Shown: positions 2,323 through 3,247 of the stretch, piece by piece | Numbering within the stretch: position 1 is the first letter of the stretch | Layout of the letters: each line of letters opens with the position of its first letter | DNA from: Escherichia phage NC29 | Reading direction: 5' to 3' (one strand) | Sequence record: NC_007827.1 | DNA length: 6,259 bases | Notes under the pieces: model-generated | What the model was told of the DNA's origin: nothing | Database searches by the model: none | What the model saw: only the letters and a program-made list of their open reading frames with translations | Translations under genes and position numbers: made by a program

Positions 2323-2479
2323 GCAGCTTATGTTTTTGACTAAAGCTGACTTTACCAATGATGATGAAAAATGGCTTAATGCCTTTGGTAATTTGCTCCG
2401 TCAGTGGTTTCAGATTGAGGATTGGAAAGGTAATCACAAAAAATTGCTTGACGATTTGAAAAACAGGCATTATATTTAA
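2273..2479 (+). CDS. C: protein C (DNA replication switch / packaging)
   Basis: ATG 2273 with AGGAG (2261-2265) at 7-nt spacing; 68 aa; ...TKADFTNDDEKWLNAFGNLLRQWFQIEDW resembles phiX174 gpC ...KTDALDEEKWLNMLGTFVKDWFRYESH. The track ORF starts at GTG 2243; ATG 2273 preferred. Confidence 0.8.
   Translation: MLSSTRYYASYRATLTKQLMFLTKADFTNDDEKWLNAFGNLLRQWFQIEDWKGNHKKLLDDLKNRHYI
2448..2476 (+). promoter_or_regulatory. sigma70-like promoter at the 3' end of gene C (pD-like): TTGACG - 17 nt - TATATT
   Basis: -35 TTGACG 2448-2453 (5/6), 17-nt spacer, -10 TATATT 2471-2476 (5/6) overlapping the last codons of C; best promoter match I found in the window; pD lies within C in phiX174. Confidence 0.5.
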
Positions 2480-2712
2480 CTCATAGATAAATGAAGCAGT
2501 GGTGCAAAGTAGTTTATCTAAGTGGTAAGTTCAGTGAAGGGTGACCCGCTCTAAGTAGCTGAAGGGTGTTGGATGTAAGGACTCCGCGATTGACTGGTTT
2601 ATACTGGAACACTATCGGGTCAGTGAAGTGGCTGCTGAGAAATAGCCCTCTAGCTTTACGAAGACTAGGCTACATCGCGAACACCATTGTTACTTTTTTA
2701 TGGAGGATTTAT

Positions 2713-3171
2713 ATGTCTAATCTTGTTGCTACCGATGTTAATTTTGCTACCTCTGTTGCTGCTCTGAAGATGCTTCAGGCTTCTGCTGTTCTTGATATCA
2801 CTGAGGAAGATTTCGATTTTCTGACTGGTGATAAGATTTGGATTGCTACTGACCGCAATCGTGCTCGTCGTTGTGTTGAGGCGTGTGTTTATGGAACGCT
2901 GGACTTTGTTGGATACCCTCGCTTTCCTGCTCCTGTTGAGTTTATTGCTGCCGTCATTGCTTATTATGTTCATCCCGTCAACATTCAGACGGCCTGTCTC
3001 ATCATGGAAGGCGCTGAGTTTACGGAGAACATTGTTAATGGCGTCGAACGTCCGGTTAAAGCCGCTGAACTCTTTGCGTACACCTTGCGTGTTAAGGCTG
3101 GATTCAAAGAAACGGTTCTGAGTGCTGAAGATAATGCTCGTCAGAAACTTCGTGCAAGTGGAGTTATGTAA
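2713..3171 (+). CDS. D: external scaffolding protein D
   Basis: 152 aa; ATG 2713 with GGAGG (2702-2706) at 6-nt spacing; near-identical over long stretches to phiX174 gpD (LQASAVLD.TE.DFDFLT...WIATDR.RARRCVEACVYGTLDFVGYPRFPAPVEFIAAVIAYYVHPVNIQTACLIMEGAEFTEN). Confidence 0.95.
   Translation: MSNLVATDVNFATSVAALKMLQASAVLDITEEDFDFLTGDKIWIATDRNRARRCVEACVYGTLDFVGYPRFPAPVEFIAAVIAYYVHPVNIQTACLIMEGAEFTENIVNGVERPVKAAELFAYTLRVKAGFKETVLSAEDNARQKLRASGVM
2891..3121 (+). CDS. E: lysis protein E (embedded in D, +1 frame)
   Basis: 76 aa; MERWTLLDTLAFLLLLSLLLPSLLIMFIPSTFRRPVSSWKAL... is nearly identical to the phiX174 E N-terminal transmembrane domain, including the conserved Pro21. Confidence 0.85.
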   Translation: MERWTLLDTLAFLLLLSLLLPSLLIMFIPSTFRRPVSSWKALSLRRTLLMASNVRLKPLNSLRTPCVLRLDSKKRF

Positions 3172-3172
3172 T

Positions 3173-3247
3173 ATGAAAAAGGCTCGTCGTTCTCCTTCTC
3201 GTAAGAAAGGTGCCCGTCTCTGGTATGTAGGCGGTTCTCAATTTTAA
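3173..3247 (+). CDS. J: small basic DNA-binding/packaging protein J (24 aa)
   Basis: Hand translation MKKARRSPSRKKGARLWYVGGSQF; the C-terminus KGARLWYVGG.QF matches phiX174 gpJ, while the short 24-aa length is typical of alpha3/G4-type J; starts 1 nt after the D stop. Confidence 0.85.
   Translation: MKKARRSPSRKKGARLWYVGGSQF

What the first reader, a model, noticed from the sequence alone, without database searches (positions are those of the whole stretch)
2891..3121. Lysis protein E is C-terminally short (76 aa) but keeps the complete N-terminal transmembrane domain
The N-terminal approximately 35 residues, which in phiX174 suffice for MraY inhibition and include the essential Pro21, are almost unchanged, while the basic C-terminal domain is about 15 residues shorter than phiX174 E (91 aa by memory). 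This is consistent with the known dispensability of the E C-terminus, but it shows how the overlapped D frame constrains E.
Basis: partly seen in the sequence, partly recalled or inferred. Interest (0 to 1): 0.2.

Follow-up and report, generated by a model that had tools for sequence, protein, structure and literature searches.

The report
Ordinary alpha3-type lysis protein E
The 76-residue lysis protein E in this small single-stranded DNA phage is real, but its length is normal for its genus (alpha3/WA13-like phages), so the shortness relative to phiX174 is already known and unremarkable.

Summary
Window 2891-3121 (+) encodes a 76-aa protein inside gene D. It has an intact N-terminal membrane helix (32/35 residues identical to phiX174 E, Pro21 kept) and a basic tail.

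The window is a complete Alphatrevirus genome, 92.9% identical to phage NC3. All eight WA13-like relatives annotate E at exactly 76 aa. Alpha3, phiK and St-1 have 75 aa, and G4 has 96. A 76-aa E from the same clade (ID21) has a solved structure (PDB 8G01).

The stop codon falls across D codons Leu137-Ser138 (cTG-Agt). Every E difference from the nearest relatives is a D-synonymous third-position change. D's third positions vary less under the E membrane helix, so the two genes constrain each other. Verdict: already known, low interest.

Separately, the C-D spacer is 233 nt here against 26-73 nt in relatives. It carries a roughly 200-nt structured-RNA element that starts just after a promoter. 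Related copies occur in unrelated dsDNA phages, base pairing shows strong covariation, and no Rfam family matches. I report this as a passing observation that deserves its own follow-up.

The parts
2891..3121 (+). Gene E (lysis protein), 76 codons plus TGA
   Evidence: Translation; PF04517 E = 2.3e-17; PDB 8G01_B and 8G02_B E about 1e-30; same length as annotated E in 8 WA13-like genomes
2879..2882 (+). Shine-Dalgarno-like GAGG, 8 nt before the E start codon
   Evidence: Sequence; conserved in all 14 aligned Bullavirinae genomes
2918..2974 (+). Codons for E residues 10-28, the hydrophobic core of the transmembrane helix; Pro21 codon CCG at 2951-2953
   Evidence: Best 19-residue Kyte-Doolittle stretch, mean 2.79, the same as phiX174; residues 10-28 are identical to phiX174 and to the closest WA13-like relatives in the alignment (across all 14 genomes this core varies at only a few positions)
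2987..3118 (+). Codons for E residues 33-76, the basic cytoplasmic tail (12 K/R, 1 D/E, net +11)
   Evidence: Composition; the PF04517 match covers residues 35-74
3119..3121 (+). E stop codon TGA, made of the last two bases of D codon Leu137 (CTG) and the first base of Ser138 (AGT)
   Evidence: Nucleotide alignment of D/E ends: relatives have CTG-AGC, TTA-AGC or TTG-AAT at the same place; phiX174 has CTT-ACT and reads on
2713..3171 (+). Gene D (external scaffolding protein, 152 aa), which wholly contains E in its +1 frame
   Evidence: PF02925 gpD E = 4.7e-78; 0-2 aa differences from NC3, ID32, ID21, NC35, WA13 and WA45, and 4 from ID62 and NC28
2448..2476 (+). Sigma70-like promoter TTGACG-17-TATATT at the end of gene C; presumed P_D, driving the D/E/J... 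transcript
   Evidence: Promoter scan, 10 of 12; the same position holds TTGACG-17-TACATT in relatives. That it is P_D is inferred from phiX174 biology, from my own knowledge
2481..2690 (+). Context, not part of E: inserted structured-RNA-like leader element between the promoter and D
   Evidence: Absent from 13 other Bullavirinae genomes; covariance-model hit at 2481-2602, 97.8 bits; covariation

Best explanation
This is the ordinary gene E of an alpha3-like (Alphatrevirus, WA13/NC3 clade) microvirus. It is translated from its own GAGG-ATG start inside gene D in the +1 frame. By homology, its N-terminal helix (residues about 8-32, kinked at Pro21) inserts in the inner membrane and blocks MraY. 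The basic tail lies in the cytoplasm, where in phiX174 and ID21 it is held by the chaperone SlyD. Lysis follows when the cell tries to divide without new lipid I. The 76-aa length is the clade norm. The reading frame ends where D codons Leu137-Ser138 happen to spell T(G/A)A in the E frame; phiX174 D uses CTT-ACT there and E reads on for 15 more codons. Shown here: the ORF, its homology, its clade-typical length, the origin of the stop, and the substitution pattern. Inferred from homologues: MraY inhibition, SlyD binding and lysis.
For: The window is a complete Alphatrevirus genome, 92.9% identical to NC3 over 96% of its length. Annotated E is 231 nt (76 aa) in 8 WA13-like genomes, 228 nt (75 aa) in alpha3, phiK and St-1, 276 nt (91 aa) in phiX174 and 291 nt (96 aa) in G4 (translations). 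Pfam PF04517 scores 63 bits. PDB 8G01 chain B (molecule name 'GPE', identical over residues 2-76 to ID21 E as translated) aligns to window residues 2-76, E = 3.8e-30; 8G02 chain B is phiX174 E. PMC12506998 and PMC11812184 summarise that cryo-EM work: E occupies the MraY active-site groove and SlyD is part of the complex. Alpha3 E (75 aa) has been expressed as a lysis gene in the laboratory (PMC11126076, Fig. 8 legend). Stop-codon anatomy is, the substitution pattern, and charge and hydrophobicity.
Against: No functional data exist for this particular allele. It carries six or seven substitutions relative to its nearest relatives (W7L, A36V, K46R, S53N, S60N, S62L, and P70L against NC3 and WA13) whose effect is unknown. 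[quoted passage not shown]
Confidence: 0.95

Rival explanations
1. E in this genome has been shortened by a recent, lineage-specific nonsense mutation, so the short tail is a derived peculiarity of this phage.
For: Only that it is 15 aa shorter than phiX174 E.
Against: The stop is at the same codon in all 8 WA13-like genomes, realised by three different nucleotide versions, and one codon earlier in alpha3, phiK and St-1. The short form is therefore ancestral to the genus.
Confidence: 0.01
2. The true product starts at the in-frame GTG at 2828 and is a 97-aa protein with an extra hydrophobic N-terminal extension.
For: the ORF listing reports 2828-3121 as an open 97-codon ORF; no in-frame stop lies between 2824 and 2891.
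Against: There is no Shine-Dalgarno-like sequence before 2828, whereas GAGG sits 8 nt before ATG 2891 and is conserved in all 14 genomes. All annotated homologues and both PDB constructs start at the equivalent of 2891.
Confidence: 0.02
3. The short tail marks a functional shift, for example SlyD-independent lysis or altered lysis timing, in the alpha3-like clade or in this allele.
For: PMC11126076 reports that lysis by another E variant (ID52-E, G4-like) persisted in a slyD knockout, so SlyD dependence varies among E proteins. The window allele has 5-6 tail substitutions relative to its nearest relatives.
Against: The 76-aa ID21 E is deposited as PDB 8G01, which by my recollection of Orta et al. 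2023 (paper not held, so not checked here) is the MraY-E-SlyD complex (one search shows only the chain match). The tail keeps the same net charge as phiX174's. Residues 36-67 are still 81% identical to phiX174 (26 of 32, counted by hand from the sequences).
Confidence: 0.1

Closest known systems
gpE of coliphages NC3, ID32, NC35, WA13 and WA45 (Alphatrevirus, WA13-like clade)
   Same: Same length (76 aa), same start and stop positions within D, 68-70 of 76 residues identical.
   Different: Six to eight substitutions (W7L, A36V, K46R, S53N, S60N, S62L, plus P70L and H3R against some), all synonymous in D.
ID21 gpE (PDB 8G01 chain B)
   Same: 76 aa, same clade, aligned over residues 2-76, E = 3.8e-30. 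Identical residues 10-28 in the transmembrane core, and Pro21.
   Different: 59 of 76 identical. ID21 has G2, H3, S7, G8, I9 and L30 at the N-terminus.
alpha3, phiK and St-1 E (75 aa)
   Same: Same genus, short tail, same transmembrane core.
   Different: Stop one codon earlier (D codons GTA-ATG or GTA-ATT give TAA). Tail net charge in alpha3 is +8 against +11.
phiX174 E (91 aa; PDB 8G02 chain B)
   Same: 32 of 35 N-terminal residues, Pro21, alignable to about residue 67, tail net charge +11.
   Different: 15 residues longer, because D uses CTT-ACT where this phage has CTG-AGT. Residues 68 onwards are unrelated.
G4 E (96 aa)
   Same: Homologous transmembrane domain and Pro21.
   Different: 25 of 35 N-terminal identities. 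The tail is longer and runs past the end of D.

Membership tests
Microvirus lysis protein E (Pfam PF04517; Bullavirinae gene E) | Sequence match to the family profile above the curated cut-off | tested here: met
   63 bits against a cut-off of 25, E = 2.3e-17, profile positions 1-40 of 40
Microvirus lysis protein E (Pfam PF04517; Bullavirinae gene E) | Encoded entirely within the external scaffolding gene D, in a different frame | tested here: met
   E 2891-3121 lies inside D 2713-3171; offset 178 = 59 x 3 + 1
Microvirus lysis protein E (Pfam PF04517; Bullavirinae gene E) | Single N-terminal transmembrane helix containing Pro21 | tested here: met
   Residues 10-28 have mean hydropathy 2.79; residue 21 is Pro. 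Identical to phiX174 over residues 8-32
Microvirus lysis protein E (Pfam PF04517; Bullavirinae gene E) | Basic C-terminal domain | tested here: met
   Residues 33-76: 12 K/R, 1 D/E
Microvirus lysis protein E (Pfam PF04517; Bullavirinae gene E) | Inhibits MraY and causes SlyD-dependent lysis | not testable with these tools
   Inferred from homologues only (PDB 8G01 and 8G02; PMC12506998; PMC3324380)
Alphatrevirus-type (short) E | Length 75-76 aa, with the stop at D codons 136-138 | tested here: met
   11 of 11 annotated Alphatrevirus genomes have 75 or 76 aa; the window has 76
HK022 put-type cis-acting antiterminator RNA (considered only for the passing observation on the leader element) | Lies just downstream of a host-RNA-polymerase promoter and folds as two stem-loops with internal loops | tested here: inconclusive
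   Promoter proximity holds: the -10 hexamer ends 14-17 nt before the core in 11 of 17 copies, against a 5% background. The 5' domain has two covarying stem-loops. However, the element is about 200 nt with at least 5 further helices, whereas put is about 70 nt (PMC9378689). No sequence comparison with put was made
HK022 put-type cis-acting antiterminator RNA (considered only for the passing observation on the leader element) | Suppresses termination by binding the RNA polymerase beta' zinc-binding domain | not testable with these tools
   Needs transcription assays
Any Rfam 15 family (leader element) | Covariance-model match | tested here: not met
   No relevant hit at E <= 1 in the window (only a chance-level Chlorobi-1 match at 3142-3184) and none in six other copies

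The most novel reading that the evidence does not exclude
Nothing novel remains for E itself. The most novel reading my evidence leaves open concerns the transcript that carries D and E. This microvirus has acquired, immediately after its P_D-like promoter, a roughly 200-nt multi-helix structured RNA of a class absent from Rfam 15. Related copies occur at the 5' ends of host-polymerase transcripts in unrelated dsDNA phages (Kuravirus, several Autographiviridae, a Moazamivirus, a Vequintavirinae member). If it acts in cis, for example through put-like antitermination, 5'-end stabilisation or ligand sensing, it would change expression of D, E, J, F, G and H. It would also be a rare case of horizontal transfer of a non-coding RNA module from dsDNA phages into an ssDNA phage. 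I did not establish a function, and it may already have been described outside Rfam.
Probability: 0.45. Interest if true: 0.6.

Novelty: already known. Interest (0 to 1): 0.06.

Why it matters
For E it matters little. The result confirms that alpha3-like phages carry a 75-76-aa E. It also gives a clean worked example of two-way constraint in overlapping genes: E changes only through D-synonymous sites, and D's synonymous sites are partly frozen under the E membrane helix. The practical value is negative: this finding should not be pursued as a peculiarity. The adjacent leader element could matter more. It may be an undescribed, widely shared phage RNA module that sits at the start of early or major transcripts.

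Tried and rejected
1. Primary papers: I tried to read Orta et al. 2023 (DOI and PMC12747129) and Tanaka & Clemons 2012 (PMC3429702). Neither is held. Statements on E-MraY-SlyD contacts therefore rest on PDB chain names, secondary citations (PMC12506998, PMC11812184) and my own knowledge.

2. Selection on the stop position: three Leu137 codon versions in the clade (CTG, TTA, TTG) all keep the stop. Four of the six Leu codons would do so, so this is not evidence for selection on length.

3. Leader element, whole-sequence fold: no better than shuffles (z = +0.25). Thermodynamics alone would have dismissed it; covariation later supported it.

4. Leader element, Rfam: nothing.

5. Leader element, E. 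coli genomes: no match.

6. Leader element, core-pattern scans: IMG/VR returned only Era103. The metagenome and genome scans returned 83 loci. About 76 were chance matches, as expected for a 17-base pattern in collections that size; 7 were true copies, all on phage-like metagenome contigs; none was in a bacterial genome.

7. Leader element as a coding region: rejected, because the copies differ by 1- and 2-nt indels and the conserved words (AAGTAG, TAAGTA, GTAGTAAG) put stops in several frames.

8. Leader element as an assembly chimera: unlikely. It is flanked on both sides by collinear microvirus sequence, keeps the promoter-to-element spacing seen in other phages, and is only 75-79% identical to any known copy.

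Full report
**What is at the coordinates**

Window 2891-3121 (+) is an open reading frame of 76 codons ending in TGA. It lies in the +1 frame of a 152-codon gene at 2713-3171. That gene matches Pfam gpD, the external scaffolding protein (E = 4.7e-78). The 76-aa product matches Pfam PF04517 (Microvirus lysis protein E) at 63 bits against a curated cut-off of 25. It also matches the two E chains in the Protein Data Bank, 8G01_B and 8G02_B, at E about 1e-30. A GAGG lies 8 nt before the ATG and is conserved in all 14 related genomes I aligned.

Residues 1-35 are 32/35 identical to phiX174 E and Pro21 is present. The most hydrophobic 19-residue stretch is residues 10-28, exactly as in phiX174. PhiX174 E is annotated at 568-843, which is 91 aa.

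**What the genome is, and what is normal for it**

The whole window aligns end to end with complete genomes of alpha3-like coliphages (genus Alphatrevirus). The best match is NC3 at 92.9% identity over 96% of the window. I fetched 11 annotated Alphatrevirus genomes plus phiX174 and G4 and translated their D and E genes.

| Group | Genomes | E length |
|---|---|---|
| WA13-like | NC3, ID32, ID21, NC35, WA13, WA45, ID62, NC28 | 76 aa |
| alpha3 group | alpha3, phiK, St-1 | 75 aa |
| phiX174 | phiX174 | 91 aa |
| G4 | G4 | 96 aa |

That is what the alignment shows. The 76-aa ID21 E is also in the PDB as 8G01 chain B. Secondary sources describe that cryo-EM study as the MraY-E-SlyD complex, with E occupying the MraY active site (PMC12506998, PMC11812184). 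Alpha3 E has been used as a lysis gene in the laboratory (PMC11126076). Short E proteins are therefore known and have been studied.

**Why it is short**

E codons start at the second base of D codons. The E stop TGA (3119-3121) is the last two bases of D Leu137 (CTG) plus the first base of Ser138 (AGT). Relatives spell the same stop as CTG-AGC, TTA-AGC or TTG-AAT. The alpha3 group stops one codon earlier (GTA-ATG or GTA-ATT gives TAA). PhiX174 D has CTT-ACT at this place, so its E reads on to just before the end of D.

This is not a clean truncation. The proteins align to about residue 67, and the last nine residues differ because D itself differs there. The shorter tail (residues 33-76) has 12 Lys/Arg and one acidic residue, net +11. 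That is the same net charge as phiX174's longer tail.

**Constraint between D and E**

Every difference between this E and those of NC3, ID32 and WA13 is a change at a D third codon position. These changes are synonymous in D and fall at the E second position, where they are non-synonymous. In that sense D does dictate how E can change.

The constraint also runs the other way. The table gives the fraction of D codons with a variable third position. The range runs from the nine WA13-like genomes (lower value) to all 14 genomes (higher value).

| Region of D | Fraction variable |
|---|---|
| Under E residues 1-35 | 0.25-0.36 |
| Under the E tail | 0.37-0.78 |
| Part of D not overlapped by E | 0.51-0.88 |

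The direction he stressed is real but is only half of the picture.

**Mechanism**

- Shown here: the gene, its start signal, its membrane helix, its basic tail, its homology and its clade-typical length.
- Inferred from homologues: the helix binds MraY and blocks lipid I synthesis, SlyD holds the tail, and the cell lyses at division (PDB entries; PMC12506998; PMC3324380).
- Not testable here: whether this allele's substitutions change lysis timing or SlyD dependence. They are W7L, A36V, K46R, S53N, S60N, S62L, and P70L against some relatives. [quoted passage not shown]

**Verdict on the finding**

The gene is real and correctly described, and it is ordinary. Novelty: already known. Interest: low.

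**A separate observation in the same transcription unit**

While aligning the genomes I saw that the spacer between genes C and D is 233 nt here (2480-2712), against 26-73 nt in all 11 Alphatrevirus relatives.

- Position. The spacer follows a sigma70-like promoter, TTGACG-17-TATATT at 2448-2476. The relatives have TTGACG-17-TACATT at the same position. I take this to be P_D, an inference from phiX174 biology.
- Relatives elsewhere. The inserted DNA has no counterpart in other Bullavirinae. It matches unannotated intergenic DNA of unrelated dsDNA phages at 72-79% identity. These are Kuravirus (MN03, XT32, Bas89), Autographiviridae of Erwinia, Klebsiella, Pantoea and Pseudomonas, the Moazamivirus SE131 and the Vequintavirinae phage UPEC06. 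Several phage-like metagenome contigs also carry it. It was not found in complete E. coli genomes. None of the 31 pattern matches in 185,579 bacterial and archaeal genomes is a true copy.
- 5' half. It folds as two tandem hairpins, each interrupted by a conserved internal loop (5'-GAA opposite 5'-AAGUA). By my own knowledge this resembles the sarcin-ricin or loop-E motif.
- 3' half. It has at least three more helices. One optional hairpin is present in the Kuravirus-type copies, in the window, and in a different register in one Autographiviridae-like metagenome contig (L035).
- Covariation. The table gives the counts.

| Domain | Sequences | Cells paired | Shuffled | Slid registers | Pairs changed on both sides |
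|---|---|---|---|---|---|
| 5' | 15 | 93.7% | 73.4% (0 of 500 shuffles reach the observed value) | 24-56% | 15 of 16 |
| 3' | 14 | 96.2% | 79.7% | 31-43% | 11 of 20 |

  Much of the 3' covariation separates two subtypes, so it reflects few independent events.
- Covariance model. A model of the 5' domain finds exactly one copy in the window (2481-2602, 97.8 bits). It finds none in the 13 other Bullavirinae genomes.
- Rfam. No Rfam 15 family matches the window or six other copies at E <= 1.
- Promoter spacing. In 11 of 17 copies a promoter-like site scoring at least 9 of 12 ends 14-17 nt before the conserved core. Only 5% of random stretches from the same loci reach that score. The element therefore looks like the 5' end of a primary transcript made by the host polymerase.

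Its function is unknown. Promoter proximity and paired stem-loops recall the HK022 put antiterminator (PMC9378689), but this element is three times longer and I made no direct comparison. A 5' stabiliser or a ligand-sensing leader is equally possible. I cannot exclude that it has been described outside Rfam. It deserves its own evaluation.

Noticed in passing
window 2480-2712 (element about 2481-2690): The C-D spacer is 233 nt here against 26-73 nt in 11 relatives. It holds a roughly 200-nt structured-RNA-like element directly after a sigma70-like promoter. Homologous copies (72-79% identity) lie in unannotated leaders of Kuravirus, Autographiviridae, Moazamivirus and Vequintavirinae phages. 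Covariation is strong, Rfam gives no hit, and 13 other Bullavirinae genomes lack it.
   Followed up: partly
L017:1390-1440, L020:483-530, L024:478-530 and other Autographiviridae-type copies of the element: The loop of helix P3 holds a conserved 7-codon mini-ORF (ATG or GTG, AAA, CAG or AAG... TGA). In most copies the invariant AAGGA lies about 9 nt upstream. In the window and the Kuravirus copies an extra hairpin (CTGG-loop-CTGG) is inserted in that loop instead. The mini-ORF may be coincidental.
   Followed up: no
L001 (phage NC3) about 2468-2520: NC3 has a tandem triplication of a 15-nt unit (TACATTTGAGCTCTC) in the same C-D spacer, so this spacer appears prone to insertions and deletions in the clade.
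   Followed up: no
window 2455-2479: The last residues of protein C differ from all relatives (KNRHYI against KKRDYI or KKRNYI). Divergence starts inside the promoter spacer, so the left junction of the inserted element seems to lie within the promoter and the end of gene C.
   Followed up: no
window 3122-3247: E and J (3173-3247) are in the same reading frame, with no stop between the E stop and the J start. Read-through or loss of the E stop would give a 118-aa E-J fusion. In phiX174, by the annotated coordinates, the two genes are in different frames.
   Followed up: no
window 2566-2712: The D reading frame is open for 49 codons upstream of the D start, across the 3' half of the leader element (201-aa ORF from GTG 2566). 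No convincing ribosome-binding site is present, so this is probably fortuitous.
   Followed up: no
window 2828-2890: The E frame is open upstream to a GTG at 2828, giving a 97-aa ORF with a hydrophobic extension. No Shine-Dalgarno-like sequence precedes it, so it is unlikely to be used.
   Followed up: partly
window 2909-2911 (E codon 7): E has Leu7 where phiX174 and most WA13-like phages have Trp7. [quoted passage not shown] Alpha3 and NC28 share Leu7.
   Followed up: no
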